The notes under the pieces are model-generated. The model saw nothing but the letters and a program-made list of their open reading frames with translations, did no database searches and was not told where the DNA came from. Positions 16,281 through 63,904 of a DNA stretch of 64,000 nt are shown here, in pieces (position 1 is the first letter of the stretch; the number at the start of each line of letters is the position of its first letter). The position numbers and the translations under genes are program-made. This stretch comes from Aplysia californica (Eukaryota): the NCBI RefSeq assembly GCF_000002075.1, contig NW_004797441.1, forward strand, positions 733,047 through 797,046, read 5' to 3'.

Positions 16281-16331
16281 CTTAACGAGGATCTGTCCCA
16301 CATCCTCAGGACGAGGTTCAATTTCCGTCAT
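16281..16331 (-). CDS. IQCH: Probable first coding exon of IQ motif-containing protein H (MTEIEPRPEDVGQILVK); remaining exons not found in window
   Basis: ATG in good context (AAAATGA), 17 codons, phase-0 GT donor (AAG|GTGGGG). Resembles the human IQCH N-terminus MAQNTENHDPVGSILIQ (recalled). Divergent from AAGAB with 176 bp between start codons, as in the human head-to-head pair. Confidence 0.6.
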
Positions 16332-16507
16332 TTTGTCCCCACTATTTTGCAACTGATATTATATCTACATCAACTGTAGGGGTATCACAACCACTGAAGA
16401 CCAAGAAAGTTTTAAATGTGTAGCCTCCGCAGGGAGGCCGCCATCAGGTTCCTCAGCAACAATGTACACATCAAAATTTGATGACGTAGTTAGCAGTCAA
16501 ATCCAAT
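16332..16507. promoter_or_regulatory. Putative compact bidirectional promoter/5' UTRs between IQCH-like and AAGAB
   Basis: 176 bp between divergent ATGs. CRE-like TGACGT at ~16482 and YY1-like AATATGGCG overlapping the AAGAB start. Confidence 0.5.
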
Positions 16508-19500
16508 ATGGCGCTGCCCTGTGTTTTGTTTTCTTCCTCAGTGGCTGATTACGATCCGAAAGAATTTGTGAAAAGTAAGTTTAAATCTTCTATTTTGTGT
16601 ATGTTTTCGAAATGTTATTGCAAGAACTCGCTGTTTACTTTAAAGATAGATCTTTAAGGTATTCTGTTAGACCCAGGTCTAAGTGCATCAGATCAGTCAT
16701 CAGTGTCTGAGTCTGTTGTTACTGTAGTTGTAGTACTGTAGTGTAGTCTGTAGTAGTGTTTAGTGTTAGGACTTTGTATGTCAACTGACTCAACTGTGTG
16801 TGCGATGCCGGCTGATCACGATGGTAGAGCTAGATTCTACTATCTAATCTAGATCTAGATCTAGATCTAAATTCTATAGATCTAGATCCGCCCGCAGATG
16901 CATTGTTTTGACGGCTAAACTGCCTCAGTTTTTGCTCACACTCACAGAACACACAAATGACCACTAAAACTTAGGTCTACAGTAAAACCTTTGCAAATCC
17001 CCCTTTTCATTTCTTTGTAAACTCAATTACCTGTGCTCGGGTTTAATGGGGCAAGGAAAGGCACAAACTTAGATACGCTGGAGACATCGAGCGAGCTAAA
17101 TTGCTGGGGGGAAGGGGGTTGCGGGGCTGTAGGTGGGGTCCAAACAGGCAGTCTGCGGTGGGGCGTTGTGATTGGCCAATCCAGTGATGAGTGAGGTGGG
17201 GCAGGCTGCGGAGAGAGATGATGTAGAGAGACTCGTTACGTAAGCTACTATAAAAGTGATGTGCCATAGTCTTAGCCAAGACACTCAGTATGAGAGCGTG
17301 TACTGTATAGGCCATCGGGAGGACTTCCGTAACAAGTGACCACTATGAGACAGAGCAGAATTGAGAGCTTGGGGTCGGGGTAGGGGTAAGGTTAGGGGTT
17401 GGGTAGGGTTAGGGTTAGGTCTAGGCCTCTTCTTTATTGTGTTTGATGGGGTGGTCGCTCGTTACGGAAGTCCTTCCTGGCCATCCCTAGGCGTGGGCTA
17501 GGCCAAAAAGTAAAGGAAGAGGAGAGCGTGTATAGATCTAGTGTGTAATTCCTGATTCATTGAATTGGGATCGTTGATGCTCAGGCATATATATGCCCCC
17601 GTCCACTTCACCAGTTCTACAGTTGGCCTGCCGATACGATAGACTGCACAAAAGCAACAAGACCAAGGAAAAGATGGCTTCAAACAGAGACAAAGAAATG
17701 CTTCTCACTTGAATTAAAGACTGAGCTAATCAACGAAGTTGACAAGAAAAGGAAGACTAATCTAAAGCGCAAATTTTATTGTATCAATATGGAAAGGAGC
17801 TAATCATGTGGATTAAAAAAATTTTTCCGGTAATTTCCCCTTTGCATTCCTACTGCGGGAACTTGCCTACAGCGGAATTTTTCTTCTGGAACCAAAAGTC
17901 CCGCTATATTGACAAGTGCCTGATTCCACTGCATCTTGACACATTTGACTGCTCCAGTTCAGGACAAATTCGAGTCGTGTGGAATCCGCCATTAGTCTAC
18001 CTTTTTCTGTCGACTATTGAGAATATTGGACTTCCTTTTTGGAAGGAGAGGAGGGGGGTGCAAAAAAAAAAAATGCCGACCCCCCCCACCCCACTGAATA
18101 AAGCCACAAACATTTTCCAAAATACTGAACTCAACTTTTTTGTATTCCCCGCTCAAAATATCCCCTCTTTTGTGTGTTGTTGGTCAGCCGGCCTTCTGCG
18201 GAACTCCTTCCATAAAAACAAGTCTAATAAATATTACTACACCAAGCATTGGTCCAAGTCCTTTTGTAATATAGTCTGTATAAAAATATCCTTAATTATA
18301 TGTGAGGCAGCGTGGTGGAATCAGGCTCTCGTCAAATTTTGGGCATGTAGAGTTATTGGTATCATCTTAAAGCTTGTTCACTTGTCTTTATTTGGATGAA
18401 AAAAATATCCATTTATCTTGAATGAATACAAGTCGAGATATTTGCGAAAGAAGGAGGTGGGGGTCACCTGTTATCAGAGACAAAATTAGTGAGAAAATGG
18501 CCACCAAAGATTCGTTAATTCCTTAGCTTAAGAGTCCATGGTAGCTGAAAATTTAAATTTTTTGTGTACCTTTAATCAACGTTTTTCAGAAAAAGCCACA
18601 CAGAAATTAGTTTTTAAATTGGCATGAAAGGTGTTGAACCGAAAAACAAAAATTTGATACAAATTCACAAACCTGCAGAAAAATGCAAGTTTTTTCACTT
18701 TCATTATTTTGACGAGAGCCTGATTCCACCACGCTGCCTCAATAAGCTCATGAACTAATGATTTGCAGTGGGTATAAAGTCAAAATTTGTTTAAAGCAGA
18801 TAAAAATGAACAAATAATAAATCCAGCCTCTATGGTATAGACCAGAGGAGAGGTCTAGATCTATCCTTTTATTGTCACTATTGACCAAGACTAGTTCTAA
18901 TGTCTCATGAAAATTTCAGATTTGCCACAGTTTGTACATTTTCTAATTACGTGGATGCAACTTTAAAAAATACTTTCGAACTGTACCAAATTTTCGTTCT
19001 ATGATTATTAGGACCAAATTTATGGCGTTTTTTTAAAGGTAAAAACCATTTTTAACATTACTAAGGTTAATTACTATTTTTAGTAGTCTTAATAGTGTGT
19101 GTATGTTTTAGTGTTGTGAAGTTAACTAGGTCACGATTGAGTTTATCACTTATTGTGTCTTTTTAAATGAATTAAATCATACACATAAGTTTCTCAATAT
19201 GATTCAGACTAGTTTAGGGCCAAGATGATAAAGGTCAGTGTATAGTGTTCAAACCATGGCTTAGAAAAGAAAGTTGGTTTGTCCTACTAAATCTTTTTTC
19301 TCACCCAGTCTTGTCAATAGTCTGTTGGGCTTTGTGAGATTGAGAACTAAGAACTTCGGTTGCGATTGGCTGGAGTGCAGTACAAACTAAAGCCAGTGAT
19401 ATGTTCCAGTTAAGTTCAAGCTATCAGTACTCAACTGTTTAGAAGGTATGACAGGAATTATTTTTAATAGTATTATAATCATACCGGTTCCCGTGCTCAT

Positions 19501-22500
19501 TTTGTGTTTCTGGCTGTCTTTTTTGTTCCAGGAATTTTGAATGTTGCCGTACTTCCTACACCTCAGATTCTCACAGATAATGTTGAGAGCTATGAGTGGG
19601 CCTTTGAAAACAAGTATTATAGCACAAGTGTTCACTTGTGTACCACTGACAGTAGGACCATTGGGGACCAAGATTTTGCAGAATCTGTTGAAGCTTTTGT
19701 CCACTACTTTGACCCTAACCAGGTAGTCTATTGCTTTTTTTATGAGCCTGATGTATATCATGGTGTGCACAATAGGTCTGCTTTTACAGTGTTTGTTAAG
19801 TATACATTTCGTGATTGTGTATCCTAGTGTGTCTGTGTCAACTAAATTACCAGTAAGCATACTTGTCATGACGCGATTGAAACAGGCGCTCGTCAATATT
19901 TGGGCATATTGATTTATTGGTATCATCTTAAAGCGTGTTTGCTTGTCTTGCTTTCAGTGAAAAAAGTAACCATCTATATTCAATAGAAGTCGAGATATTT
20001 GCTTTTGAAGGATGTGGGGGTTGCCTGGTTTCAGGGGTAAAAATAAAGAGAAAATTGCTGTCAAAGTTTGATGAATTCCATAGCTGGAGAGCCCTGGGAA
20101 ACTGAAACTTTACTTTTTTTGCGCCTTTAATCAACGTTTTTCAGTAGAATCCACACAATAATGTGATTATAAATGGACATAAAAGATGTTTAAAAATTGC
20201 CAAACCAACAGAAAATCGCCTGTTTTTTTAAATTTCATTATTTTGACGAGCGCCTCATTTCACCACACTGTGTCACATATGTTGTGATTTGTTTTAAGTT
20301 GGTGGGGGGAGGGGGGGGGGATACTTTTTGTTCTATGCTGCATCATTTCATTACCTTTTCTTTCTTATCTCATTGCTTTATAAAATTATACTTAAAGTTT
20401 AGTTGTATGTAGCTACTGAATTTATTCCACAAAGAGCTTTGAAAGTTGAAAGGGCTTTTACTTTTTGCCTTGAGTTGGACTGGAGTGTGCTCTGTTTCAT
20501 ACTTCTGATGACTTTGACACCGCGTGTTTGAAAAAAAAATGTTTTGTTTTCCCTCTATACATATTTTTTTTTGTCTACTTTTTTCTACAGCTTAATTCTT
20601 TTGAACTTGCAAAGGCATGGCTTCCCTACCTCAAGCATATTGAGCCAGAAATTCAAATCTTGGTCTGTGAATGTAGCAGATATACAGATGGTAAGAGTCT
20701 GTCTTTCCATGAAATCAACTGAATTCTTCATTTTGTTTTTAATGAAAGGGAAGCATGGACAGCTAAATTTTGTTGTAGCAATTTATGATACAATTATCAA
20801 TACCATTTTGTTTTTTAGTACTTTTGAAAGAAGGTCTTTCATAAATTTAAGTTACTTATTTTGAAAGAGTGTTTTAATTACCAGACTGTAAATTTGTAAT
20901 CCTGGCATAAAGTTCAGTCTGCTCATGTTTAGGTAGAAAGGAGCAACTGTACCCATGACCTATAAATGATTGCATGTTTGTTTAAATTACTCAACTTAGT
21001 TTTGATCGCATTTGTATTTATCAAATTGTATTAATATATATTTCCCTAACCTTTTTACAGGTTCTGTTGTTAACTACTTTTTTTTTCTTCATTTCAGTTG
21101 TATGTAGGAAGGAAACACTTGAATGGTGCATTCAGAATGGATTTGAGTTGGTTGAACTATCACCTGAAAACGATGAAGATGAGGGTAATTAATGCACACT
21201 CAAACCCTATTATACCGTCAAACTTTAGACAAGCATGAAGCTGGCAGTTTGATGGGGCTGTTGGTATATTTATTAACAAGTTTTAAATAGCAAAAACTGC
21301 CAAACATCAGGGGAAATAATTCTGCCATCAGAGCAATTTGCTGTTGTGACTTTGAGGGCTTTGTTTTAAAATATTGCAAACTTCTTACTTTTTCTGAGCA
21401 GTCAAGCATGAACGTTTTCCAGCCATCTTGACAAATGGTGGGGTAGACTGGTAGAGACAAAGTGTGGACAGTTTTGCCGTACCTAGGTCTGTCTTGCGTA
21501 GTTGCTGTGCTCAGAGGAAAAACAATAAGAAATCAGTAACGGCTACACCAAAGCGTTAGGTCATGACCATGTAAATTCAAATTGAAAATTACAGCCAGAT
21601 TGGAGGCTAGGGCCTACTTTTCAAATTCAAATGCTTTCCGTCTGAAATCTGCAAGATGAGAGTTGGGAGGTGAGGTAGGAGGGGAGAGAGCAACTAGTAC
21701 TAGCTCACAGTCATGTGTGGGAGAAAGGAGATTATTTATTCCTGCACAGTTGTTGAGTGGGTACTTTGAGTGATGTGTACTGTGTATCTTTGCCTGCCAA
21801 TTTCATTGTCGGTGCTGTAGCACATATTTACATTAATTTAGTAAGGACCATATGACTTGGGAAGATGGCAGTTTAAGGGGACAAACCGTATGTTTATACA
21901 GGTAATGCTTTTCATACGTTTGCAAAACCTGGTGGTAAGCGGGACTGGCGGCATAACAGGGTTTGATTGTACTCATTATTATGTTATTTTTCTATTAATA
22001 TATTGGGTAAATTTATAGAAACCCTCCTGTCTCATAAAGGGTATTATTTTGTAGCTTTTTATGGGTCTTTTAGGGCCCTGAACACGATTTATCATATATT
22101 GTATTAAATATTAGATTTTGAAGGCAGAAACCCATCAGATCAGAATGTCTCGGCTTCCATTGTGATTATTGCAATGTGTCAAACTTGTTTATTATGAAAA
22201 CCTGTGCAATGCCGAGAAGAAAATAGAAACTGACTCTCTCCCTTGATACAATTTTATCTAAAGTGGAAGGTATTGTTAAAGTATAGGCTCAGTGTAATTA
22301 ACACATATGGGACCGGCCTCACACTTGACTTTCAGTTCCCCAGGACCGTAGCTGTCGCCCATTTTCTGACTATGCGAGATGCATGTTACTCTAGTATGGA
22401 TAACTCAGCCACTAGTAAATTTGTAAACATGGAACTTCACTAAACTGTTAAGAATATTTGTTTCCCAATGCTAAAACACCTGTTTAAAAAAAATGTATTT

Positions 22501-25500
22501 TGGTTTGAGTCATTAAGATGTAATCAATTATGTAACAGTGAACTTTTATCCAGAGTAGAACAATGTATGATGATTTAGGAGATGGCCCAAGACCCCAGCC
22601 ACCTTTCAATGTTTCATCATCATCTGCCTCTTTCACCCTGGTATTGGATGTAGGCTGCCAAGAAGCTATTGTGGGCAATCTTCTCTACCTTCAGCCACAT
22701 GTGGCTCCGTTTGCCTGATTGTTATTTCAATGTTTGGTCCAGTAAAGTTTCAAGCAAAAATGCATTTTTTCTATTTGACCTTGATCATTGCTACTGACAT
22801 TAACGTGAGACATATTCTTTGACTTTGTGACTTGATTAGTAATCTTGTAAAACTGACCTCATCTTTCATTTGTCTCTACCCCTCCCCTTTTGTTTTCTTG
22901 TTCCCTTGCAAATAGTCTTTCTTTCACCAATTATTGAGAGCAATATTTTTATCAATTTAGGTCTGTAGAGTAACTATTTTCCCTATATATGATGCAGATT
23001 TTCACAAATAGTTTAGTAGAAGCAGAATGATTTGCAGTTTGTTTGCCAAATAAGAATACGCTACTGAAGGCTGGTACTCAATGTCTAAGCATCACTGTAA
23101 AGGCACTGTAAATGTATTGTTTATGTTCTAAGTTACTGCGAATGTTATGTGAATTTATCGATATATTTTTCCAAAAGTTGTAGAGGTTTGTTCTTTTTTG
23201 GAGGGGGGGGGGGGGTGGGGACCGCCTGGTAAAGATATTACTGCATTATTACGTTACAGAATCATATTTGTGTGTGTGTTTTGTGTTTGTTCATAATGGT
23301 ATTTTGTGCTTTGAGAGACAGTTTATTCTTTAGATGATGTCTCATGAATATTTGTAGCAGCAAACATGAATTGAAATTTGTTTTTTCTTTTTCAGATGAT
23401 GACTTCCCAGAAACAACAGGAATGGCACGAATTATTCAAGCACTCAATGCTCATACCTGGCCAAATATGGAAATGAAAGGTATGTGTGTCCCTTGTGCAC
23501 AAAGTTTTCTTTTGAAATTTAAGTAACTTATAATTTTATGAACTACTTACTTTTTATGAAACAATTGTCCAGCCTGAAGGAATTTGGCATGTTACAAGTA
23601 CTCTTTTTGTCTGCCAATGTGATATATAAGGGCAAAGTGTAGTAAATTGCCGTTACTCAGACTTTGAATTGATGAGATTGTTCTCTACACTGTGGGAGTA
23701 ATACAGTTTAAGATGTCTCTTATGTACATGTATAGAATTGTGTGAGAGGCAAAATCCATGAAATAATCAGAATTTTTTATTCTATCTCGTTGCAGACAGT
23801 CCTCCAGTGCAGAGCCCGTATTTGCGCCAAATGATGAAAGAGCAGCATTTGATTAACCAGCAAAATGCGAATGCTGTGCTTAATTCTGGTTCTGAAACCA
23901 GTGCCTGTGAAAATAATGAAGATTCCTTAACCGAAGGTGTCACTTGCAATTCTGAAAACCAAGACACAGATACAGACTTATCTTCACATGATGCAGGCTC
24001 AGAAACTGACAATGTAAAGAAGACCGACATGAGCAGTAATAAGGAATCAGTGTGCAATAATTCTACTGGTGCTGTAACAGGGAATGAAGAGAACGTACAG
24101 CAGTCCAGCAATGCTTCCACATCCAACAAGTCGGCAGACAGCGGAGACAGTGGAGGGGGATCAAGTGCTAATGAACAAATGCCTCTTGATGACATCAACT
24201 GGAAAGCTCTTCTGGCAGACAGTGCACAAACAGGTACCATGCTTTATTTATGATCTCGTATTGGTTGTTGTTAGAGTCACAGAAAATCACATGAACAAAA
24301 TGATTACATGGGGAAGGCTGGGGGGGGGGGGGGGGGGGGGGGGAGAGACTAGCAAAATGTCAGTCAGGAATATCAAAGTGACCAAGGAGTTTGTCCCGCC
24401 TGCAACACACTTTTACTGTTAATGTGGAGATGCATTTACCATTGATTTTTAATTGTTTCACTTGGTATATACTGTAAAGTCTGCTTAAGCTGAACATGGT
24501 TAATCCCAAAACAGTGGTAAACGGAACTGACATTTTGATGTTCTTAATGAGGATGAGTTTTCACTGTTTTTAGTCTTCTGTTAGATAAGTCTGTGACTTT
24601 GAAACTAACAATTTACAGTCCTTACTTTATGAAAAGTTTGTTTATTGCAGGGTAATCCTTGCATTTTTGCTTCCATGTTTTTGATTTGGACTGTTGATCA
24701 CTTTAAATATCGAGAAATGTAGTGCGTTGGAACATTTTCGAGTTTCCTGTTTGTTATTTCTCTCTGATTGACCACTGCAGTTCTTCCTTATCCATCCCAT
24801 CTTCACACATTTTCTCAAATATCTGCCTTTGTTCCTCTGTGCCTTAGATTTAAACAACTATTTTGTGTGATGGATGTGGTAGAAAATGAGAAAATTCAAA
24901 TGAAATCTTGATGATTTGTTTTGTTGATTTTGGGTTGCAATATCACCTAAGAAAATCATGAACAGGAACTTGGAAAGTCTTTATTCCAATTTAACAAATA
25001 ATCATCATTGTCTTTAAAATTGTTTTTACAGATGCTCCTCTTTCTGAAGACGACATTGGGGTGGAAGAATTTGAGCAACTGTTTATGAAGTTGAAAGTCA
25101 TGAAAGGTAACTATTCTTGTCTTTTCTGTGGATTGTCATGCCTGTCTTTCTTTGCACCGATAATGAGGCTATATAATCTGACAATGATTTTTTCATACAA
25201 CTCACAATAAAACAGTCTTTTTTTCCTAAATCAAGACTTGTACCTCTCAAGCAGTCTTGATTCTTCTTGCAAGCTATGTTACTCGTTTGGAGAATGTGAC
25301 CATAAATGTAAAGATCGATATTATATACTCCTCACTGATGATGGTTACTATTATCAACTTAATCAAACCTTACTTCTTCTGACAGTTTTCTCAACCATTT
25401 CATTAGGAAATGGCCTGATTCTAAGTTATTATCTGGTTTGCTCCTTCTTTCCTATTCCTATCAAGCATCGATCGTCCTAATCTCTCCTCCTTTTCTTTGT

Positions 25501-26526
25501 GTGTTATACTTTAGTAACACCTCTAATCTTGGCACTTATATAACTTATTTGTGTTTCAAGTGTCGTAAATGTAATACTCATACTAAAACTAAAACAAGTT
25601 ATTGTACAATTCGGTTGGTCAGTGACAGTGAGTATGATTTCATTTTATGAATGTCATTTGGGATTGAAGAATATAAAGGTAAAGTGCTTACCCGAAGTGG
25701 CAGGAGATGATGATGTAGCTCTTACAAGATGCAGTCTCAGCCATGAGTCATCTATTCACAATTTTCTGGGTTTATTGTACTGGGTGTCCTTTTGGAAAGA
25801 GAAATGTGGCCACTCTTTCATGTTTGAAGAATTTGATAACTCTTTTGTTCCTTGCAGACAAGGCAGATACAATGCCAGTCGATGAACGGAAGAAATATGC
25901 AGAAAAGGTGAGATGTCTTCATAAACGATTTGCTTTTGTATAGATGTTTGTAAATATTTTTCACTTAGGCTAAAAATTTTTTCACTGCAACTGCTGTGAA
26001 TGTCAAGCAGCTTTTTTGCAAACTGCTGATGTACTGGACAATGGAATGTGCAAATTTTACGGAAAACTAATAGCTTTATCATCTTTAAATTGTTGATAAT
26101 TTCGACAAAAGTTAAAGTGCTCCTCCATCCTGATTTTACATTCAAGGTCTTGTCTGTGCTCAAGTCATGTTCAAAGGAGAAGACTAGATATCTTTAAAAA
26201 ACCTTTAATAAATGCATGCCCTCCAGATGTCCTTGTTTACACTTTCATAATGGATAGAAGTACAGATCTATAGAAACTTTCATGTATCTAGTTTTGTTTG
26301 ATGTGTGTATTTTTCCTTACAGTAAGTTACAGTAGAATGTATATGTTCGTAATCTACATGATTATGTTGTAGATGAATCTGGTGATTAAGTTGGAAAGAT
26401 AGTCTTACTAAATAAAACCCTGTTTTGTTTTATCCTTTCCTGTTTAAGGTTGCTGTTTCATTTTGGAAAGCCATTGGTGGAGATGAAGATGAAATTTTGG
26501 GTCTGGATGATTCGGATGCTGACTGA
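16508..26526 (+). CDS. AAGAB: Alpha- and gamma-adaptin-binding protein p34; join(16508-16574,19532-19722,20591-20690,21098-21184,23396-23479,23796-24233,25032-25106,25858-25907,26449-26526), 389 aa
   Basis: All introns GT-AG, phases consistent, total 1170 nt. Hallmark peptides [67 protein letters not shown] and [19 protein letters not shown] match the AAGAB family. Confidence 0.95.
17317..17477. mobile_element. 161-bp MITE with GG termini, ~26-bp TIRs, 8-bp TSD and a TTAGGG-like G-rich core (possibly Merlin-type)
   Basis: TIR GG(G/A)AGGACTTCCGTAAC(A/G)AG(T/C)GACCAC. Flanks AGGCCATC (17309-17316) and TGGCCATC (17478-17485). Confidence 0.7.
17675..17790 (+). pseudogene. Remnant of a pogo/Tigger (CENP-B-like HTH-psq) transposase N-terminus
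   Basis: Translates [21 protein letters not shown], resembling the psq-type HTH start of Tigger transposases. Short and frameshifted. Confidence 0.4.
21197..21969. mobile_element. Pogo/Tigger-type MITE family C, uninterrupted copy in AAGAB intron 4
   Basis: Degenerate TIRs CA(C/A)TCAAACCCT(A/G)TTAT. Homologous in inverse orientation to 32782-35122. Confidence 0.7.
25431..25595 (+). mobile_element. Short retroposon family R, slightly 5'-truncated, old copy
   Basis: TSD AAGTTATT (25423-25430 / 25596-25603), (CTAAAA) tail, body homologous to 31678-31854. Confidence 0.7.
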
Positions 26527-26916
26527 CTGTAGGGTCTAGCACTATGACGTAAAGTGCCGATTACTCTACTCTGTACCATCGCAGTACATTTTATACCCGC
26601 AATAGTGGTGGAAATGATAACAAAGTCTTTCAGATATGGTCCTGTCCTCATTTTAGCTGTGAACTGATAGTCAACAAAGTTTTTGTAAATTGTAAAGTAG
26701 GCCTATTTCACATTCAAGACAGGCTTAGTGAATTTGCAATTGTGTCAGAATGTCTTAATGAAAGCATTTTTCTTGAAAATGTTTTATTCTTACTTTTCTC
26801 TTTGTTTTAATCATGGAAGAGCTGTGGTACCTAGTTAATGCCTACAGGAAAAATTCTAGTTTAATGAAACTCAAATACTTGAAATGATTTGAGATACAGG
26901 TACTCTATTAGTATTA

Positions 26917-27719
26917 CAGTGGAACTCGGATTCAACAAGATGAGATAGATTCCCCATTTTTTTTCTTCTTTAAAATCAATAATAATAACCCGGATTCAAC
27001 AAGCACTTAAATCAGCGAGCTCGGATTCAACGAGTGCTTTCCAGGGTGAACAGCCCCCGCAGATGTGGCTTCGCTCATTTTACTCTCAGAATGAACTTTA
27101 TCTGTTTCCGGAAACCATCCATTGCACCTGCATCATGAACCATTATTCACTTAGCCGATTGCATGCGACCAATCTGCGGTCTTTTTTTCATACCAACACA
27201 TGCGTTGTTGGCCCGCACGCGTGTCTACTCTAGCGTGTGTCGGGCTCGGATGGGCGGCCTGCACACGTGTGATTGTGTGTGCGTGTCGGGGAGGGGGGGC
27301 ACTAGCGGTCCGGGCGTTGAACGTCGCAGATACAAACGCGTCGGTCTCCCCCCCCCCCCCCGGCAACTGATCATTATTACAATGATAAGCTAGTCTTGGC
27401 GTACATCTATGTAATGAATTGTGCGCTGGTCTATGGAATCAAAATTTGCCGTATGCTAGGCTCTACACATCAACACTACTTTTTGGTAAACAATCGAGAT
27501 GACACAGGCGTGTGCATTTGAACGAATCGGCCTTTTTTTTTGTTTACACACCTCATAATATGCAGACATTTCAGGCACTACTTGTGACTTCTCTTTATAC
27601 ATTAAAGTTACAGTGCCTGTAATTACCTACACAAAACCTCGTGTTTGCTATAACGAAGACTCAGATTCAACGAGATTTTAGGTCAGGCCCGGCGACCTCG
27701 TTGAATCTGAGTTCCACTG
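26917..27719. mobile_element. Tc1/mariner-pogo-type MITE family B in the probable AAGAB 3' UTR
   Basis: TA + CAGTGGAACTCGGATTCAAC ... GTTGAATCTGAGTTCCACTG. Other copies at 31889-32250 (partial, inverted), ~44420-45703 and 52349-53140. Confidence 0.85.
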
Positions 27720-30700: not shown

Positions 30701-30889
30701 TGAAATTAGTTCAGAGTCATAATCATTAGGTCACTAAAGCCAATTCACCCAGCGCTCACCTACTCCCGATCACATGAAGGGCACTTTTCCAAAACACAGT
30801 TGTTTCCCTCTGAGACTGTCAATGTAACTAATGGTGCTCTTCCAAAAGCACTAGTAAAAGATTACTGGCAACTCTGAAGGTCAAGAACA

Positions 30890-49067: not shown

Positions 49068-49330
49068 CCGAACAAAAAAGTAACCAAGCAATCCAGTAAA
49101 AATGAAAGGGTAGAAATGTATCAGAGTTGATTGTTTATTATACTAACGAGGTAAAGCAGATCTAGATCTAGTCTATATATTTTTGAAGACGCACGGTACG
49201 TAGGCAAGGTTTGAAATCATAAGAATTCAATCTAAATCTAGCTAAGTCTATTGACTATGATTGCTTGGCCTATCCGCCTGCCTTCTCATTTTCCGGATTT
49301 TCCGCGGCTTTTCCCGAAGTTCCTGTTTAC
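49068..49330 (-). promoter_or_regulatory. Candidate TIPIN promoter and non-coding first exon, divergent from ADPGK
   Basis: TIPIN's ATG exon has an acceptor at 44031-44032, so an upstream exon is needed. Strong donor CGG|GTAAGT at 49067, and ETS-like CCGGAA/GGAA and CpG-rich motifs at 49290-49325. Confidence 0.35.
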
Positions 49331-50315: not shown

Positions 50316-50853
50316 ATGGAAATCCAGTTTTCGAAAGGGACTGTCATTCTGTCGATCTGCTTCATCTGTGTCTCCTATTTGTTTTACACGTATTCCGAAG
50401 ATCAAGATTTGCCTGATGAAAGATATGTGATCGATTCATGGACAAAACTGGTTAATCTGCCCCCTAATCAGTTCAAGCGGCTTGCTGTTGGGTAGGCTAA
50501 GTAATTATAGATTCTAAGTAATACGTTGGTCCTTGGCTTGTTTGGGAGTGTATATCAGACCGGGTAACGGGAACAAAGTCACAAAGTATACAGACCCGGT
50601 AGGGGAACTCTTTTGTGATTTCGGAGCGTTTCAGCGCCCTCTTGGCTCAGGGTAGACCTAGGTTCTTCTAGATCTAGGCAGACAGACATAAATCTTTCAT
50701 CTAGTTTCGCGGGTAACCTAGATTCTAGATTCTAGATCTAAATGAAGATTGCGGATGTCGTTTCGATGGACGATGGTTTGTCCTCCGTTTCGGAATTGGA
50801 GGAATCACAATCCGAAGAAAAGAACAAGTTACAATGTCATAATTTCAATCGAG

Positions 50854-50931
<78 letters not shown>

Positions 50932-53900: not shown

Positions 53901-56900
53901 AATGTCCCATGATGCCTTTTGTAAAGTAAACTGTAATTAGGAAACATTCTGGTTTTCCCGATTCAAGCTATCCAATTGTTGTCCACTAATAGGTCCTAAA
54001 GAGATTTACTCAGATGAATTAGTCTTGGATGAAAGTTCATTTCTTGCAGTTTGCCATCATCATTTGATGGTTTACCCAAGAATCAAATCTGGACTCCAGA
54101 AAAATATCACTGATTTAAATTGATGCTTCATTCTGTTTATGCTGAGCTTTCATTTGAATTTGTAAGGCTTTGCTTGTGAGTTCTTTTTTGCCTACCTTCT
54201 CATAAAAGGTCCTTCTGAAGACTCTGTTGCCTTTTATAGCCAACTTGCGAACTTGCTATGCACTGCTCATAGCTAGCTTGCTTTGCACTGCTCATAGCTA
54301 GCTAGATAACTGAGACTTAGTCTTCTCATATTTCTGCTGAAGTGCAGGGGTGTCCCTGCTGCATTGCACAAGCAGCTCTTGTTTACCCTCTTGTGAAGTA
54401 GGAATACTTACGCTGCTAAAAAGTTTTCAACTTTTTCAGGATGTTTCATGTAAATGAACAATTATTAATGAAAGACAATAAAGTTTAGTAGAGGTGGGTA
54501 GAGATGAAAGTTCTGTTTGTGTACAAATGCTTTATGACCGATATCTGAAGTGTGAAATAGTGGTTGAGGAAGTATGTGCATGCATTGAATATGTTCATAC
54601 GATCATAGACCTATTTGACCCTTTACGCATATGTGTGTTTAAAGAGCAAACAGAAATATCTTTTAAAAATGTTTATAGAGGAAGCCGTTTTTGTTATGAC
54701 ATGCACAGTCAATAGACTTGACAATAGGAAGCATTCCTTTTTAAAATATTATAAGGTCATTTTTGTAATTACATTATATGTGAAGTATGTCTCCCGGCTA
54801 CTTGAGGGTAGTTTTTGGAAAACATGCACAATGAAAAATACTAGTCTTAACCGGTTTAAAGGAATACTTTTTTTCTGCGTTCGTGTAACTAATGAAGGTT
54901 TTTAGAGTTTGCTTATAGTGAGCTTTGTTGATAGGGTTTTGCTCCCCTCTAAACATTGTTATAATAAATTAAGGGTATGCTTTAAAACATTCTCCTGAAC
55001 TCCATCTATTGCAACTGACACACAAAAGATGTTTCACTGCTTGAAATAAGTCCTGAATATTTTTTGATAACTTTTTCACTTCCACAGCATCAACTCTAAC
55101 ATCGATGTCATTGTCTCGGGCACAGAGCTTTTAAATACTCTTCATATCTCTCCTGCTAAGCGAAAAGATCATGCCACCATCAACAACATCGGGCAGCTGC
55201 AAGAAGCGTTTGCCTACTTCTTTGCTAAAGGTGGTGCTGCTGAACGTCCATTTACAGATAAGGCGGAGTATCAAAGGATCATTCAAGCAGCCGAAACTTT
55301 AGGTCATGTTGAGGTGAAGTATGAATTGCAATGCTTGAATATATATAGCCTGGAATAATTTTTGCTTGACCTTACATAAAATTGTTTATTGTATTATATT
55401 GTTGTAGGGTTTTTTTTCTCCTTTTATTTCTGACAAAAAATTGTTCTAGGTTTTGTGAGTAAGACAAGATACCCCCCGGGGCAGTGCCACTGACTGTCTT
55501 TAAGGCTATTCCCAAAGGGGGGACATTTCTCATTCAAGCACAGTAAATTTGTAAATGGGCTGATTCATCATGTCACACTCATAACTGTGCCTGATCTACA
55601 ACAGGGAACTGCTGCTTTTTCTTTCTTAATCCTTACTTTTGTCATTTCCTCTACTTCTTTTGTATGTTTGTCACACTCTTGTGACCCGCTTTTTCCGGGG
55701 TGCCTTAATAGTCAAAGCAGACCTTGTGCTGTCGAAGCTAGAGAGGTGAGCAGAGTAAGTCTGATTCCCTGTAAAGACTTCTCTGTTGAAACCCACCCCT
55801 TGGCGCTCATATGACCTTATGCAGTTGCGAGCGCCCTCTACTAAGACTAAGAGTAAGACAAGAAGCTAGTTTGTAGATCAATGGTATTGGTGCTCTGGGC
55901 TTCGAGAATGCTTCTGGGATGAGGTTACTCAGACTGCAAGAACAACATCGCAATGTGGTTTTGTGACTTCAAATAAATAGATGCAGTGGCTCTGTGGAGA
56001 AAGGTCCTTTATCTAATTATTAACAAAAACTTGATGGACAGAACAAGCTATTTATGACTGTCCCCTCATTTGATACTCAAATATATGTCCTTTGACACTG
56101 ACCACCTATTTTGTCTTTTGGCTTTAGATTTTTCCTAGTAATTTTCATCCACTTTTTAAAAAAATGAAGATGTTTAAAGATCTATTGTTCCTTCCAATGC
56201 TGTCTACCTGTCATATTTTGTATTTGTTATTTCTACATTTGTATGTATGGTCATACAGTCGAACTTCGTTATGGCAAAGTTGATGTTTCAGGTTCCTGAA
56301 TATTTATTTCTTTACGTTAAAATCAATTTTTAATGTTGTTTCAGCACTACATTGGAGGGAATGCTGGTCTTATGGCATATACAGCGTCTAACCTTTTTCC
56401 AGACTTGAAAGTAAGTGGATCGAATACGTTTTTTAGTTTTTGTAGTTTTCTTTGACTTTTGTAGGTTTTCATAACACTTTAATTGCTCTATGATTGGGTT
56501 CAAAGTTGTTCTGTGTCACCAGGCACCATCCCATCTTGACATAATCTGTTATTATGATATTAAATAGTTTGTTGTGCAAGCCTAGTTAACTTCAAAGACA
56601 CAAATCCCCTTAGTGTGGCAGTGCGAGGTGTAGATGGATAGGTTCTGCCGTTGAAAATGTAGAACTATAAAATTGTGCTCAATTGTTTATGTTTTCTCGA
56701 AGTGTCTTTATGTGTCTGTATTTTTCAAAATCAGTCTTCAAATATCAGAATGAAGAGGTCATAATTCTTCTTCTTTCTCTTGGAAGATCCTGTTTGCTGG
56801 ACCTGTGGGCCCCTTACTGGAGAGCTTGATGCCCAAGACCCTTGAGATCCCATCTTCATGCAAAATTGCCAGAGATGAAGTCCACCTAATCATGGAGTAT

Positions 56901-59900
56901 AAAGTTGGAGAGAAATGGGGGGATGCTGAAGCATCTGTTGCTACCAGATTCATAGCCACCTATGATGAATCTAATTCGAAAAGTTTGATGTTGGAGCCTT
57001 TTTTTGAAAGCCTGAAAGCTTTCAAGCCAGATTTAATTCTTTTATCAGGTACTTAGTATTTTAATGAACTCTTAGATTTGATCTAAGGTAATAACATTTT
57101 TGTAAAGCATTAAAGGTCAATTAACTCTTTTGGCAGTAAACATGGCATATGGCGTGCCAACGCAGCTGGTCCCCGAGCGGAAAACACAGTTTATGCCGTG
57201 CTCACACCTGACACACTGATAGTCTTAATTTTGAGCTACTCTGACGCTGTTAAAGAGGGAGAATGACACTATAAATTATTCCTAGAGAGTTTCGTTTTCA
57301 TTTTTCACATAGTTTGCAAACATAAGCCATGTTCAAATGAACCCCTACCTAATTTCTGATGTTCAGTTGTTTCTTTTTATAAAAAAAAAACAGAACAGCA
57401 CGGACACCTAATACAAATACGCAGTATATTCTCTACGAATTACAAGAACAGGAAGACTGAGGGAAAAAAATAGACAGAAGAGATAGATACCATTAACTGA
57501 GATCCACTTTGATTGACTTGACTGATTCAAACAATGTCACTGAAGATGAAGCTGCTGGGTGACTTGTTGAGGAGGCACCTCAATTTGATGACAAGTTGTT
57601 ACCTCCACTCACAGGAGAATCGAGTTGTGAAAACAGATCTGATATGATTCATTGATTGTAATCAAATTATTCTGACACCTTATTCACTTTTGAGTATTTT
57701 GGTGCTTAATACATATTTGCATGTGTTATGGGTTTTTATAAAGTAATTTTTAGTCACATGACCACTATTTGTTAAAGAAATGGCCAAGTAGTCTCTCACT
57801 CAGAGGAAGTTCCGTGGGGAAACTAACTGCTGCCCAAAGAATTGAGTCTAATCTTTATATCTGGCATGAGAAATATTTTACTTCTTTCTTGTGATTTGCA
57901 CGGTACAATGAGAGTGGAAGAAATGTTGGTTTTGTTGTCAAACATTTTAAGGGAATGTAATTTTGTTTTAAAATGTATGAAATGTATGAATTGTTTGTTT
58001 TCTCAATGGCTGATATATTTGTAATTTATCAATAGATCAGACCTGATGAATCATTTTGGAAGACATGCTTGTAGTATGCTGCCCTCAAATCTTGATTTTC
58101 TCTATTGTCTCATGAATTTTTATTTTACCAAGAATTTAGAAAGATTTGAAATATTTGCATGCTCTAAAAACTTTTATTTTTGTATCTCAGGTTTGAATAT
58201 TTTGGATGGTCAGACTCCAGAGTTCTTTCAGCAACGTTTAGAGAAATTAATCACTTTGTCTAAAGAAGTTCCTTCAACGACACCTATTCACCTTGAGCTT
58301 GCCAGCATGGCGAACAAGAACTTTGTGAAAGAAATTGTCGAAAAGGTATTTATATGTTTGTGTGAAGCTTCTTTACAACATTATATGAATTTGTACTCTT
58401 CGCATAGGTCTTGCTGTAAAATTTGAAGTATAGAGAAGTTAAGTATTGATTTATTTAAGAATTCCTCTTTATGTTACAAAGGGATTTGCAAATTAGCTTC
58501 AAAATCACGTTAGTCTGTGAACAGAACCTGTCAACAAATTTGGCGAAGCAAGTTAATTGAATGTACATGTACTTTTTTTTCTTGCTTTGTTCTCAATATT
58601 TTTAGTCGAAGTTCTGTTGTATATGTGAAATTTTTTAATATACTTTCAAGATTCTTATTTTTATTCTTTTATACGAAGGGCCAGTCTTAAGACAAATGTG
58701 TATTGTGTGTGCTTTGATTTGATGTTTCTATTTATGTCTTTTATCTCTGATTGGTTGTTTTCTTCAATGTATTTATTTTCATAATCTAACAGCTGTCTGA
58801 GCTTTTGTCCGTTGTTCCAGTTTCATGGTAAAGGTTCTGATGGTGTTTGATAGTGCATCAAATGAAGGATTTTTTTTGCATGTCTGGTATTGGTTTTTGG
58901 TAGATATTTATTAGGTCGCTATTAGGTGCGTTGCAGTCAGCATGCAAGGAGATGATGTATTAGTGGGGCATTGATAATGGCAGTGTGGATTGGGTGAGTT
59001 TGTTTTCAGGTTTTGTGCTGACTTTATGAGCCGTATGATTTTTTTACTATTGTGTAGTTGACTCTTCAAAATATTTTCTTATAGCTTGGAAATGCTGAGA
59101 CTTTTGTTTTTGCAGAATATTGTCTGTTAAAATGTGCAATACCTTACACCACAATTTGGTTTCTGTAGACATTTATCTATAAATGTATTCCAACTGCTTT
59201 TCTGGAAAATGGTGACCAGTCTCATCTCTCAAATGTCTTTATCTGTCCTTATTGTTGATAGTTCTAGTGTGGGGGAAGCATGTTGTGGTGTAGACTGACT
59301 CCCTGTTTTGCTGTGTCCTCTCATGTGTTTGTTTGTCTCATCAGTATAGCTGTCTGTTCAGCAAGGATTGTGATGGGCTGTTTGTAAGGCCTACTTCTCC
59401 AATTTTGCCAATTTGTGTTGTACATACAGCTTTGCAATGTGTGGGCATTGGCATGCACAGGAATAAAAAGTGTGACAGCTTGAACTTGAAGAGTGTGAAA
59501 ATTTTTAATTTGAATATACAATTATAAATAAAGACATGCTACTGGGGGGGGGGGGGGAGGGTTTAGCTCAATGTTTTTTACAGCAGGTGGTTGGATGTGC
59601 CACTGGCAGGTCCTACTTCTTTACTTTCCCCTGTTGCTTCTGTCTGTTTTTCCCCTTTACTCAAACAAATGAATGATTTCTTACACTATGTGTGTTATTT
59701 GCTATGAGTTTTAAAAGTTTTTCTTTAAACTACAAAAATGGAAAGCAGACAGTCTGTTTCATTCATAAGGAAGGCTATACAAGACTGCTCTCACTATGAG
59801 AATGAATGATTCATCACTGTACCAAAAGAGGGATACACTTAATCTATTGGGATGTAATTAGGTCCAGTATTGACTGTTGTTTCAAGCTGCCCAAGAATTT

Positions 59901-62900
59901 ATCTTGAACATTTTTCCTTTATACTTATGTGGTATCTATCACTTAATTTTTGGGGTAAAAATATTATATTACTAAAAAAAATTTAACCACATTCGTAATA
60001 TTTTGGCCAATTTACTTTATTTTTGAGTGCAGTACTTCAAAAAAGCAACTTTGTTCTAATCAAAATTAAAATCATAACAGGCATCTCAAGACTGAAAGAC
60101 TTCTAGACTTGAGACGGTTGTAGCACACAGTGAATGAAAGATCTCACAAATAATTTAGCGTGGAGCATCTGTAAAGACATTAGTGCATAGAGCTGGGTCT
60201 TATAGCAAAACTGGCCTTGATATCTATCTGGAATTTGTCTTTTCTTGTTTATCAGGGTTTTTTTCTGGGTTTTTTATCAGGAGGGTTGAGGGGAGAGGGT
60301 GACATTTTTCATGTGCTAATAGGCTCACAGCTATGAAAATGTACTGTAGTTGTCATTGTTGAGTTTTATATATACATTTTTCATATGCTTATTTGTTTAT
60401 GGATTCATATCAGAAAGATTTCACTATTTGTCAATCTGATGGTCCTTAAGAGGAAGATTTCACTCCATCCATGTGACCCGAGAGAGTACAGCTTAGTTGT
60501 GTCTCTGAATATGATAATGATTCTGTCTCTGAATATGATAATGAAAGAAATATTTGTGAGAAGAAACGTCAAAGATTATAACAAGTTTAAATTTGGGTCC
60601 CCTTGCCTCCCTTCTTTATGGGTCTGTAGTCCCTATGTTTACCTAGTGAGATCAGGAGATTGGTAATGGTGTTGTCCACCCATTACAGTAATATACCAAA
60701 ACATAAAAACAACAAGAAAAAAACTTGTTCTAGAGAAAATGTTTCTTAGAATGATTGACATATTTCGATTGTGAAAATAATCCACTTATCATTGTATATT
60801 ACTGTAATTCAAATTGAATCATGAATGTCAAAAAAAATCTTTTCACTTGCATGACTGTCTTAACTCTTATCCTGCGTCTGTGCTGAGATGCGAATCTTAT
60901 CAGCAACCATTTACGTCAGATGTTCTGGGCAGGCCGCCGGGGTCACTCAGTGTGTACTGTTGGTGTACAGCGCGCGCGCCAGGAAATGTGTGTTTTCGCC
61001 CTGGATACTGCGGGAGTGTGTTAATCGATTATGAAAATAACGCTCTATCTTTCATAGCTTTCTATTTATAAAGTGTTACAAACACTTGAATAACCCCCTC
61101 TTATAAGCTGATAAGACATTACGAGTAGTTATGCCAATTCAAATAACCTTTCTAGATGCTCTTGTTGTTATGAATGACCTGAGATTCGAAAGAGGATAAT
61201 ATAGGTCAATTTCCTAATGTTTTGCGCACAAATTGTTCTTTGTACCTGCACAATGGTATTCAAAACTATCAAACAAACTTATTTTTTATCAGATAGTATC
61301 ATTTCATACAAAATCAAGCTCATTTGAAAGATTTTTTATGGAAAAATGGAAGTCTTGTTTCCTGACTATCCTTTCGAGCTTCTCATGTCTAAGTGGGTCA
61401 ATTTCTTCTATAACTTCATTGGACGAACATCTAGAGCTACCAACTTGGCGTTGTTTTGAATGAGACGTATGCCTCGATTACAAACCAACGCAGGTGGTTC
61501 TAGAAGAAGGCCACAAATGCACACAAACTCAAGCAGACTGACGCACACACACTTGACCTGTGTGAATGGGGATCCGACGCGGGACCCGAATTTCACTTGA
61601 GATGATGCTCGGCGCACGTACGCTGAGCCAGGGGCCAGACTTACGCGGGACCGGAACGCAGGCGAGGTGGCGAAATAGGCTTATCGGCCGACGTAAACCC
61701 GTCCCTCGAAGGACGAGAGTTAATGTACAGCAAGATAATGAAGCTGCGTAGTTTGAACAGTTATAGGACTTTGGTTTATATTGTTTAAGGATTCAAAATG
61801 TGTTTTGCTGTTAACTTTGTTACAATCTAAGCCTGGTGTATTTTTTCTTTTCTCGCTTTTATGATACTTTCCTGAGCCTTTTCCAAGTTTAGTGCACTTA
61901 GATGTTTGAAGTGTGGTGTGGGTTACATTTTCTTGGTATGATAACGAATGCAGGGGAAGCTTTGTTGTTGTTGACGATGCCAAGGAGCAGTGATAAGTGG
62001 ATTATTTTCACAATCGAAATATTTCAATCATTTTAAGAAACATTTTCTCAAGAACAAGTTTTTTTCTTGTTGTTTTTATGTTTTGCGTATTACTGTAATG
62101 GGGGGGGACAAGTTTTCAAATTGAATCATGAATGTCAAAATAATCTTTTCTCTTGCATGACTGTCTTAATGTACAGCAAGTGTCCTCGATGTGTGTTGCT
62201 GTTAAATTGTTACAATTACCTTTAATTTTAATTCAAAAATTGAATGTGCAGTGATTGAAGACTTTCTTTATTATATTGTTGTTGGTCTGAAAAGTTTCAG
62301 CTTTTGCCCCTTGGTTGAATGCCATGAGGTGGTTTGTGTAGGTCTTCTCCACTTGTTGTGTTCTTGCCATCTTGACTCACTGGAAGAAAAGTTTTGATTT
62401 TGTCGAGCGCTGGGCAACAGGAGAATTATGATTTTTTTACTGTCTCATATGGGTAGTCACACAACAAATACTTATGGCAATTTTCTTGTGGTTGAAGCTG
62501 TGCTCATTGCCTGCTCTGTTCTGTTCTTTAGAGATGGATTTTATTGTGACAACTTTGTTTTAAGATATTGATAAGAGAACCCACCCCACCCCCGGAACCA
62601 GTGTGATACTGTGTTAGGACCCTCAAATTGCTTTGTCATGATCTTGAGTTTTCTCCTGGCATAATCCTACTTGAATAGGCAACAAATTTTATTTTGTGAA
62701 TGACTGGGAAATGGCAGGGTCCCTTCATGTGAGATATGTTCACTAATTTAATGCCCAGAGAAGTAAAAATGGTGAAAAATTATTCTCTTTTAATATTGCT
62801 GTGTGCACGACTTTCCCTTTTTTCCTTTGTGCTAATAAATTATACAATGCTTTGAGCCTGTTGAGACCATCGTGATACATCAATAGAATAAATGGATGTA

Positions 62901-63904
62901 TTTCTTGATGTCAACAATAGGTACATTGAATAATGGTTAAGACATGCACTGTTATGAGTTCCTCTGTCCCTACAGATTATTTCTCAGATTAATAGTTGTT
63001 TCTTTTGTTTTTCTTAGAGAATGAAAGACTTAATGGTATTTCTCTAATCTAAGGATTTTCGTATGCTCAGAGCCAATGTGCAATGGGTACAGTGTAATTT
63101 TTCAGACTCTCTGGATCTCTTTGTGCTTGAAATTTTACTTTTGAAACAGTGAGTTCTTTGATTGATTAATAAGGAGTGGGTGAAAGATTCTCAGAAGTGT
63201 GTTTGTCATGTATAAAGATGGTCATTTCTGTAATGTTCAGGATTGAAAGAAAAAGTCAGTTGTTTTGTTGACTTCTAAAGCTGCACAGTTCATCAATTTT
63301 TATGTTCTCCTGTTATTTAACCCCAATTTTATTTTTCTCTTTTTTTCAAACTTTTCAGGTTGTCCCAAATGTGGACTCCCTGGGCCTCAATGAGCAAGAA
63401 CTGGTGTTCTCTTCAAAAGCTTTGAATGGGCCTCACTCAGACCACCTGGATGGAGACAGTGGTCAACCAGACATCCACAAGATATCAGATATTATGTTAT
63501 GGATGCTGAAAAGTTACGGTCGTTCACCTAAGTCTCCTACAGCCAGGCTGACAAGAGTACATTTTCATTCCCTCACCTTCCACATAGTGGCGGTAGCAGA
63601 GGGTACATGGTCCAATGTGGATGAGGCAGCTGCTGCTGGTGCACAGGTAGCTGGGCTCCAGGCCTGCGATGTAGCTCAACTCCAAAGTGATATTGTTGAG
63701 CTAAAGATACCTCGCAAATTCCACCTGTACTCTGGTGATGTGGAAAGAGAGTTGGATCCTCGCAGTCCTGTCATGCAGTGGCAGAAAGATGGGTACATGT
63801 TTGTGTTTAGTCCTGTGTTAGTGTGTAAAAGACCTGTGAAAACTGTTGGTTTGGGAGATGCGATATCTGCCACTGGCCTGGTGTACTCTCAGTTCTCAAA
63901 ATGA
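50316..63904 (+). CDS. ADPGK: ADP-dependent glucokinase; join(50316-50491,55088-55313,56345-56410,56787-57048,58191-58345,63359-63904), 476 aa
   Basis: GT-AG introns, consistent phases, 1431 nt. N-terminal hydrophobic anchor (TVILSICFICVSYLFY), LAVGINSNIDV, KGGAAER, YIGGNAG, DEVHLIMEY, IHLELASM, SLGLNEQE, TRVHFHSL and catalytic TVGLGDAISA. Confidence 0.96.
50544..51328. mobile_element. Long-TIR (~85 bp) non-autonomous DNA element in ADPGK intron 1, spanning an N gap and a (CT)n tract (50857-50930)
   Basis: 50558-50634 is the reverse complement of 51241-51318. Confidence 0.75.
51974..53657. mobile_element. Foldback-like element with ~140-170-bp TIRs, hosting a family B MITE
   Basis: 51974-~52145 is the reverse complement of ~53500-53657 (GATC-rich). 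Confidence 0.8.
52349..53140. mobile_element. MITE family B, full copy with TA TSD
   Basis: TA-CAGTGGAACTC...GAGTTCCGCTG-TA. Confidence 0.85.
55470..55850 (+). mobile_element. 381-bp retroposed fragment with the shared LINE 3' hairpin and a different body
   Basis: 13-bp TSD GAGTAAGACAAGA (55457-55469 / 55851-55863). Ends GCGCTCATATGACCTTATGCAGTTGCGAGCGCC + (CTAAGA) tail. Confidence 0.8.
57125..57841 (+). mobile_element. Old piggyBac-type non-autonomous element
   Basis: TTAA-CTCTTTTGGCAG ... CTGCCCAAAGAA-TTGA, with an acidic ORF-like remnant inside. Confidence 0.55.
60864..61719. mobile_element. piggyBac-type MITE family P in ADPGK intron 5
   Basis: Perfect TTAA TSD (60860-60863 / 61720-61723). 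The empty site is visible in the local duplicate at 62166-62169. Confidence 0.88.

What the first reader, a model, noticed from the sequence alone, without database searches (positions are those of the whole stretch)
16281..63904. IQCH-AAGAB-TIPIN-ADPGK cluster: four neighbours whose human orthologues all lie on 15q22-q24
Seen: the genes are consecutive within ~48 kb, arranged as two divergent pairs joined tail-to-tail. Recalled knowledge: human TIPIN is at 15q22.31, AAGAB/IQCH at 15q23 and ADPGK at 15q24.1. Inference: this may be the compact ancestral state of a bilaterian microsynteny block that has been spread over several Mb in vertebrates. Shared ancestral linkage group alone could partly explain it.
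Basis: partly seen in the sequence, partly recalled or inferred. Interest (0 to 1): 0.7.

Follow-up and report, generated by a model that had tools for sequence, protein, structure and literature searches.

The report
Ancient gene pair inside snail triplet
In the sea hare Aplysia four genes that humans carry on chromosome 15q sit side by side, but only the head-to-head pair IQCH-AAGAB is adjacent in humans too, a third gene (TIPIN) is shown beside them only in other snails, and the fourth (ADPGK) is likely a recent neighbour from the same old chromosome.

Summary
The window is Aplysia californica. IQCH, AAGAB, TIPIN and ADPGK are intact, orthologous and consecutive, with small gaps: 176 bp between IQCH and AAGAB start codons, at most 321 bp between TIPIN and ADPGK transcript contigs. 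Conservation comes in three layers. (1) IQCH-AAGAB is head-to-head in human (95 bp, published list) and in 4 of 63 metagenome loci (3 independent; 86-215 bp), and has adjacent locus tags in a bivalve: ancient. (2) TIPIN joins the pair in Bulinus (tags 311/310/309) and Lottia (accessions two apart), so the triplet spans gastropods; beyond them it is unshown, though TIPIN is seven genes away in pig. (3) ADPGK is on another scaffold than TIPIN in 6 of 8 other gastropods and 48-711 or more gene models from the pair in 4 of 4 chromosome-scale assemblies with ordered identifiers: shared chromosome only. Likely mechanism: a shared bidirectional promoter plus small breakpoint targets. This is a new member of a known class (conserved ancient microsyntenic pairs). 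No earlier scan finding bore on it.

The parts
16281..16331 (-). IQCH first coding exon (17 codons); the gene continues left of the window to about C171:702,071
   Evidence: Matches residues 1-17 of P0273; GT donor follows; ATP-grasp_IQCH exons at C171:705,873-709,714
16332..16507 (.). 176-bp gap between the IQCH and AAGAB start codons; inferred bidirectional promoter
   Evidence: promoter activity not tested
16448..16460 (.). Palindromic RFX X-box-like 13-mer inside the gap (consensus recalled)
   Evidence: Reached by 9 of 1000 dinucleotide shuffles; 2.5% of 2356 background windows have a one-strand match; post-hoc motif
16508..26526 (+). AAGAB coding region, 9 exons, 389 aa
   Evidence: PF10199 match on exon 5; contig offsets fit exons 3-5 and 7-8 exactly; single locus
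26527..30889 (.). Tail-to-tail region, mostly 3' UTR: AAGAB contigs reach 26959, the spliced TIPIN contig reaches 29830, further transcript-like pieces cover 27501-29506
   Evidence: table 8; which gene the middle pieces belong to is not shown
30890..43985 (-). TIPIN coding region, 8 exons, 371 aa (Swi3 domain)
   Evidence: single locus
49069..49704 (-). TIPIN 5' UTR exon, spliced to 44030 over a 5,038-bp intron
   Evidence: Joint seen in 3 of 4 runs laid; the joined contig reaches 49704 in run X10
49705..50025 (.). At most 321 bp between TIPIN and ADPGK transcript contigs; inferred second bidirectional promoter
   Evidence: contigs bound the gap but cannot show start sites
50026..63904 (+). 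ADPGK: 5' UTR from 50026 or earlier, coding 50316-63904, 6 exons, 476 aa
   Evidence: orthology against the C549 paralogue

Best explanation
The four genes are real neighbours in Aplysia, but the cluster is layered: IQCH-AAGAB is an ancient head-to-head pair likely held together by a shared short promoter, TIPIN has likely sat tail-to-tail with AAGAB since the common ancestor of gastropods, and ADPGK likely arrived later by rearrangement within the same ancestral chromosome. How it would work: two start sites within about 90-220 bp share one promoter, so a break between them is rare (tiny target) and harmful (each gene loses its promoter). An RFX-type site there would tune the IQCH side. The AAGAB-TIPIN junction is mostly 3' UTR, so it too offers little free DNA to break, but it carries no promoter and has been lost more often. 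All four genes descend from one old chromosome, so 'human 15q22-24' is partly expected for any neighbour. Shown: order, spacing, orthology, the comparative pattern. Inferred: promoter sharing, RFX role, selection, timing.
For: Pair: human divergent pair, start sites 95 bp apart (PMC3815023 supplement row), consecutive chr15 indices 306/307 (PMC7530604 supplement); Potamilus tags 036731/036732 and Bulinus 048310/048311; direct DNA in L049, L095, L103, L104 with ATG gaps of 146, 86, 215, 215 bp and the same IQCH first-intron position. L049 falls outside bivalves plus gastropods in an IQCH tree. Triplet: Bulinus 048311/048310/048309; Lottia ESO87612 and ESO87610; IQCH and TIPIN on equal-length contigs in 5 of 7 other species with both, including 768-kb and 596-kb scaffolds. 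ADPGK: different scaffold from TIPIN in 6 of 8 other gastropods, same chromosome in 1, undecidable in 1; 48 tags (Mactra), 445 tags (Patella caerulea), 711 accessions (Owenia) and 11,439 tags (Pinctada) from IQCH or AAGAB; same chromosome as IQCH in 7 of 16 species with both, 8 different, 1 undecidable. Background: 5'-5' pairs with short gaps are the best conserved class (PMC3514665 section 7); order within linkage groups is otherwise scrambled (PMC8809688 passages). X-box palindrome in 2 of 4 independent gaps, 0 of 6 control stretches.
Against: Most cross-species order comes from contig lengths and identifier spacing, not from DNA read here; orientation in Bulinus, Lottia and Potamilus is unseen, and the Lottia record between IQCH and TIPIN was not looked up. 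The pair is breakable: no IQCH upstream in 6 of 6 loci with about 8-10 kb upstream that lacked it (L073, L080, L089, L090, L098, L099). The triplet fails in Nucella (different scaffolds) and Dreissena (different chromosomes). L049 has no X-box match; L103/L104 have only a relaxed match at chance level. Co-expression and start sites were not measured. ADPGK on another scaffold could in single cases be fragmentation. Mactra at 48 tags is closer than typical. L095 and L103/L104 could not be placed reliably.
Confidence: 0.75

Rival explanations
1. The triplet TIPIN-AAGAB-IQCH is itself ancestral to bilaterians; one inversion on the vertebrate stem put MAP2K1 to SMAD3 between TIPIN and AAGAB. ADPGK is still incidental.
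For: In pig TIPIN lies seven protein-coding genes from AAGAB, on the side away from IQCH, as in Aplysia (PMC9593086 passage). With recalled human strands (TIPIN minus, AAGAB minus, IQCH plus) a single inversion of TIPIN to SMAD3 gives the Aplysia layout. Rough chance of being within 8 genes: 0.6-2% under assumed numbers. The triplet has lasted across gastropods.
Against: 0 of 63 metagenome AAGAB loci show TIPIN, though most are too short. L095 keeps the IQCH pair but has a phosphomevalonate kinase gene 3' of AAGAB. Dreissena has TIPIN and IQCH on different chromosomes. Among thousands of neighbour pairs, 1-2% events are common. Human strands come from no call.
Confidence: 0.3
2. One reading: all four genes are the compact ancestral bilaterian block, later spread over megabases in vertebrates.
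For: All four are orthologues and tightly packed in Aplysia, with two divergent pairs; ADPGK is 48 tags from IQCH in Mactra.
Against: ADPGK adjacent in no other species examined; Lymnaea, Physella and Lottia keep IQCH and TIPIN on one scaffold with ADPGK on another; 445 tags in Patella caerulea and 711 accessions in Owenia. ADPGK is absent from the pig 2.9-Mb gene list. Chance of lying within about 50 genes in human is 4-13% under assumed numbers.
Confidence: 0.04
3. Neutral persistence: no shared regulation; the junctions survive only because sub-kilobase gaps are rarely hit by breakpoints.
For: Unrelated functions (adaptor-complex chaperone, spermatogenesis-linked IQ protein, fork protection, glucokinase; passages and recalled). 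All three junctions are short. The pair is absent in several lineages.
Against: The IQCH-AAGAB gap stays at 86-215 bp in five lineages of very different genome size, while the tail-to-tail junction has been replaced (L095, L090). X-box palindromes in two distant gaps.
Confidence: 0.2
4. Chance within one linkage group explains everything, including IQCH-AAGAB.
For: The four genes do share a chromosome in many species, and the window was picked from a genome-wide read.
Against: Adjacent and head-to-head by chance is 0.02-0.06% per comparison under assumed numbers, yet it recurs in human, a bivalve and three independent metagenome lineages.
Confidence: 0.01

Closest known systems
Conserved ancient microsyntenic pairs (CAMPs), co-regulated 5'-5' class, e.g. 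HSPD1-HSPE1 (Irimia et al. 2012, PMC3514665; abstract, sections 7 and 12 read)
   Same: Unrelated genes, adjacent, divergent, gap under 1 kb, orientation kept across phyla
   Different: No shared pathway is known for IQCH and AAGAB; co-expression untested; whether the pair is already in that paper's list is unknown (supplement not readable)
Human divergently paired genes (PMC3815023; one supplement row seen)
   Same: AAGAB-IQCH is listed there with start sites 95 bp apart
   Different: That row concerns human only; the invertebrate evidence is added here
Ancestral linkage groups / macrosynteny (Simakov 2020 PMC7269912, 2022 PMC8809688; passages read)
   Same: All four genes stay on one chromosome in many bilaterians while order is scrambled; this covers ADPGK
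   Different: The pair and the gastropod triplet keep adjacency, beyond macrosynteny. Assignment to chordate linkage group C is recalled, not tested
Genomic regulatory blocks (developmental regulator plus bystander; PMC3514665, PMC7530604 supplement rows)
   Same: Long-lived linkage of unrelated genes
   Different: No developmental regulator among the four; PMC7530604 files AAGAB and IQCH under its 'noTD' set, and no SMAD was found in the Aplysia flank ORFs tested

Membership tests
CAMP, 5'-5' class (IQCH-AAGAB) | Two unrelated, non-paralogous genes | tested here: met
   PF24923/PF00612 against PF10199
CAMP, 5'-5' class (IQCH-AAGAB) | Linked with at most four intervening genes in four or more lineages | tested here: met
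   Vertebrates, gastropods, a bivalve, L049 outside bivalves and gastropods, and L095 and L103/L104, unplaced; my species set differs from the paper's
CAMP, 5'-5' class (IQCH-AAGAB) | Divergent orientation kept, gap under 1 kb | tested here: met
   176, 146, 86, 215, 215 bp; human 95 bp; orientation unseen in Bulinus and Potamilus
CAMP, 5'-5' class (IQCH-AAGAB) | Correlated expression from shared elements | not testable with these tools
   Only contigs were available; X-box hint in 2 of 4 independent gaps
CAMP (AAGAB-TIPIN) | Linked in four or more lineages across phyla | tested here: inconclusive
   Gastropods only; seven intervening genes in pig exceed the four-gene limit; not linked in Dreissena or L095
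CAMP (TIPIN-ADPGK) | Linked in four or more lineages | tested here: not met
   Adjacent in Aplysia only; 6 of 8 other gastropods on different scaffolds
Ancestral four-gene bilaterian block | All four adjacent in outgroups on both sides of the bilaterian root | tested here: not met
   amphioxus and hemichordate order not available
Ancestral linkage group (macrosynteny) | Same chromosome in distant bilaterians | tested here: met
   IQCH and ADPGK share a chromosome-length contig in Argopecten, Mya, Mactra, Pinctada, Gigantopelta, Owenia, Antedon; exceptions Amphiura and, for AAGAB-ADPGK, Lineus
Ancestral linkage group (macrosynteny) | Named group (C1 or C2) | not tested
   Data file S1 of PMC8809688 carries no gene names I could match; group C is recalled from 15q/18q21/19p13 paralogy
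Genomic regulatory block | A developmental regulator with enhancers in a bystander gene | tested here: not met
   None of the four is such a regulator

The most novel reading that the evidence does not exclude
TIPIN-AAGAB-IQCH is a three-gene relic of the last bilaterian ancestor, intact in gastropods and one inversion away in jawed vertebrates, which would date the arrival of MAP2K1-SMAD6-SMAD3 next to AAGAB; its core IQCH-AAGAB promoter with an RFX site may be older than bilaterians if L095 is a non-bilaterian.
Probability: 0.3. Interest if true: 0.45.

Novelty: new member of a known kind. Interest (0 to 1): 0.3.

Why it matters
It gives a worked case of how one apparent cluster mixes three ages of linkage, and warns that 'all on human 15q' is weak evidence by itself. 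The IQCH-AAGAB gap, kept at 86-215 bp from sea hare to human, is a small testable promoter shared by a skin-disease gene (AAGAB) and a spermatogenesis-linked gene (IQCH) (passages); variants there could affect both. If the triplet proves bilaterian, it marks a rearrangement that built the vertebrate SMAD6-SMAD3 neighbourhood. About 600 such pairs are already known, so the general gain is modest.

Tried and rejected
Assembly artefact: rejected; no N in the junctions, and spliced contigs bridge the N at 45844-46040. Wrong orthology: rejected for ADPGK by the paralogue test; this is not a reciprocal best hit against the human proteome, and the reference set was gathered with the window copy as query. 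RefSeq XP numbers for Antedon and Babylonia were not used, since their order is not known to follow position. Candidula AAGAB and IQCH differ in scaffold, but that IQCH record is only residues 628-1097: uninformative. A TIPIN tblastn hit in L070 lies inside AAGAB, matches a non-conserved tail and was not recovered by profile: dropped. Placing L095 and L103/L104 by AAGAB and IQCH trees gave conflicting long-branch positions; the atlas did not help. Whole records behind five metagenome loci were not held. No listed run was on record as RNA; the contigs used skip introns, and run X4 looks like DNA. Supplements: PMC3514665 unreadable; none of the four names in those of PMC13508932 and PMC10719294 (one scanned file unsearched); bioRxiv supplements closed. 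Literature searches listed no paper on invertebrate conservation of these neighbours or on RFX at IQCH; only listings were seen for most. A permutation test on real gene orders could not be run; one search is arithmetic on assumed numbers (400-800 genes, 30-50% retention). Earlier scan findings: none relevant.
Full report
Source and anatomy. The window is G000:C171:733,047-797,046. Its ADPGK is named Aplysia californica in the protein collection, on a contig of the same length, 1,287,649 bp. I built AAGAB (+, 16508-26526, 9 exons, 389 aa), TIPIN (-, 43985-30890, 8 exons, 371 aa) and ADPGK (+, 50316-63904, 6 exons, 476 aa) with GT-AG introns and no internal stop. TIPIN and ADPGK equal P0121 and P0001. 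Only 17 codons of IQCH lie in the window (16331-16281); they are the start of the 1,097-aa P0273, whose other exons run to C171:702,071. The cluster therefore spans about 95 kb.

Orthology. IQCH, TIPIN and AAGAB gave one locus each. ADPGK has a paralogue on C549. Over 383 shared columns six vertebrate ADPGKs are 41-43% identical to the window copy and 31-34% to the paralogue; the same solved structure scores 178 bits against 65 for the last exons, of 181 and 127 aa.

Junctions. The IQCH and AAGAB start codons are 176 bp apart. Spliced contigs in 3 of 4 runs join 44030 to a TIPIN 5' UTR exon that reaches 49704, and ADPGK contigs begin at 50026, so that gap is at most 321 bp. Between the stops of AAGAB and TIPIN (4.4 kb) contigs cover most of the stretch: AAGAB to 26959, TIPIN down to 29830, loose pieces between. 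Contigs cannot show start sites or strand, and no run is on record as RNA. No N lies in any junction.

Method for other species. No annotated animal genome could be browsed. I used three proxies: the length of the contig on which a protein was seen, locus tags or accession numbers, and DNA of metagenome contigs. Listings were partial: 120 of 283 ADPGK hits, 15 TIPIN, 47 IQCH; 18 of 136 AAGAB representatives were looked up by name.

Layer 1, IQCH-AAGAB. Human AAGAB and IQCH are a listed divergent pair, 95 bp apart (PMC3815023, one supplement row), at chr15 indices 306 and 307 after SMAD6 and SMAD3 (PMC7530604, supplement rows). Tags are adjacent in Bulinus and in the bivalve Potamilus. Of 63 metagenome AAGAB loci, 4 show IQCH head-to-head: L049 (whole gene), L095, L103, L104, with gaps of 146, 86, 215 and 215 bp. 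L103 and L104 are near-identical, so three are independent. L049 lies outside bivalves and gastropods by 922 IQCH residues and has a lophotrochozoan-type AAGAB linker. L095 and L103/L104 could not be placed. Against: six loci with about 8-10 kb upstream have no IQCH (L073, L080, L089, L090, L098, L099); most others are too short. The pair is old but not unbreakable.

Layer 2, TIPIN. Bulinus has IQCH, AAGAB and TIPIN as tags 048311, 048310, 048309. Lottia IQCH and TIPIN are ESO87612 and ESO87610; the record between was not looked up. IQCH and TIPIN share contig length in 5 of 7 other species: Lymnaea (768 kb), Physella (596 kb), Bulinus, Lottia, Biomphalaria. They differ in Nucella and Dreissena. 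Limpets and heterobranchs span the deep gastropod split (recalled), so the triplet is likely ancestral to gastropods. Beyond them, no TIPIN profile hit in 63 loci, and L095 and L090 have other genes 3' of AAGAB. In pig, TIPIN is seven protein-coding genes from AAGAB on the expected side (PMC9593086 passage). With recalled human strands one inversion restores the Aplysia layout. Under assumed numbers such nearness arises by chance at 0.6-2% per pair, which a genome-wide read would meet often. I give a bilaterian triplet 0.3.

Layer 3, ADPGK. In 8 other gastropods with both genes, ADPGK and TIPIN are on different scaffolds in 6, the same chromosome in Babylonia, and undecidable in Biomphalaria. 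Lymnaea, Physella and Lottia keep IQCH with TIPIN and have ADPGK elsewhere. Where ordered identifiers exist on one chromosome, ADPGK is 48, 445, 711 and 11,439 records from IQCH or AAGAB (Mactra, Patella caerulea, Owenia, Pinctada); the Pinctada tags may not follow position. It shares a chromosome with IQCH in 7 of 16 species. This is macrosynteny with scrambled order, as described for ancestral linkage groups (PMC8809688 and PMC7269912, passages). Flanking Aplysia genes have human counterparts recalled as off 15q.

Mechanism. Shown: a gap of 86-215 bp in five lineages. Inferred: it is one promoter serving both genes, so breaks are rare and costly. Head-to-head pairs with short gaps are the most conserved class among about 600 ancient pairs (PMC3514665, abstract and sections 7 and 12). 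A palindromic X-box-like site occurs in the Aplysia and L095 gaps (9 and 5 of 1000 shuffles), not in L049, only loosely in L103/L104, and in none of six control stretches. The consensus is recalled and the test was post hoc, so RFX control of IQCH is a lead. AAGAB-TIPIN is better read as a small breakpoint target. TIPIN-ADPGK has promoter-sharing geometry too but is found only in Aplysia.

Novelty. Six literature searches listed no study of these neighbours in invertebrates. The supplement of PMC3514665, the likeliest place for the pair, could not be read, so it may already be listed; two other supplements gave no hit. Other papers: PMC10009479 and PMC3101357, passages only. The scan's earlier findings held nothing relevant.

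Verdict. Observation confirmed; interpretation partly supported. An ancient head-to-head pair inside a gastropod-wide triplet, with a fourth gene that shares only the chromosome. New member of a known kind; interest 0.3.

Noticed in passing
window 7869-12971 (+), inside IQCH intron 1: LTR retrotransposon with 172-bp terminal repeats 98.8% alike, protease and integrase matches, in several frames; no envelope gene was seen.
   Followed up: partly
window 1-7052 and L001:7643-10000: A 4,655-bp stretch occurs twice, 99.7-100% alike, on either side of the 100-N run at 2298-2397; likely an assembly overlap, which would shorten IQCH intron 1 from about 21.7 to about 17 kb.
   Followed up: partly
L108-L109 (G000:C549:52,577-66,393, minus): A second, divergent ADP-dependent kinase gene, 35% alike to the window ADPGK and outside all 22 reference ADPGKs, including one with a sponge-type label (recalled): an old paralogue.
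   Followed up: partly
L021-L029 (C171 about 805-877 kb): Two related multi-exon genes in mirror orientation just right of ADPGK; no Pfam match; weak MACPF lead from the atlas, score 0.86.
   Followed up: partly
L006-L011 and L030-L035: Further neighbours: single-exon Trm1-type methyltransferase, RNF145-like RING gene, DZF-domain (ZFR/ILF3-like) gene on the left; mitochondrial HSP70 and an acyltransferase on the right. Their human counterparts are recalled as lying off 15q, so the 15q run stops at the four genes.
   Followed up: partly
L095:1964-2729 (minus): Phosphomevalonate kinase gene directly 3' of AAGAB in a very compact locus that keeps the IQCH pair.
   Followed up: no
P0280, P0287, P0292, P0294, P0296, P0303, P0304: Seven bivalve IQCH records begin with unrelated N-termini in place of the conserved first exon, hinting at a second promoter away from AAGAB.
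   Followed up: no
window 48550-49050: A repeat inside TIPIN intron 1 with Ets-like and CpG-rich motifs and very high contig depth in all four runs.
   Followed up: no
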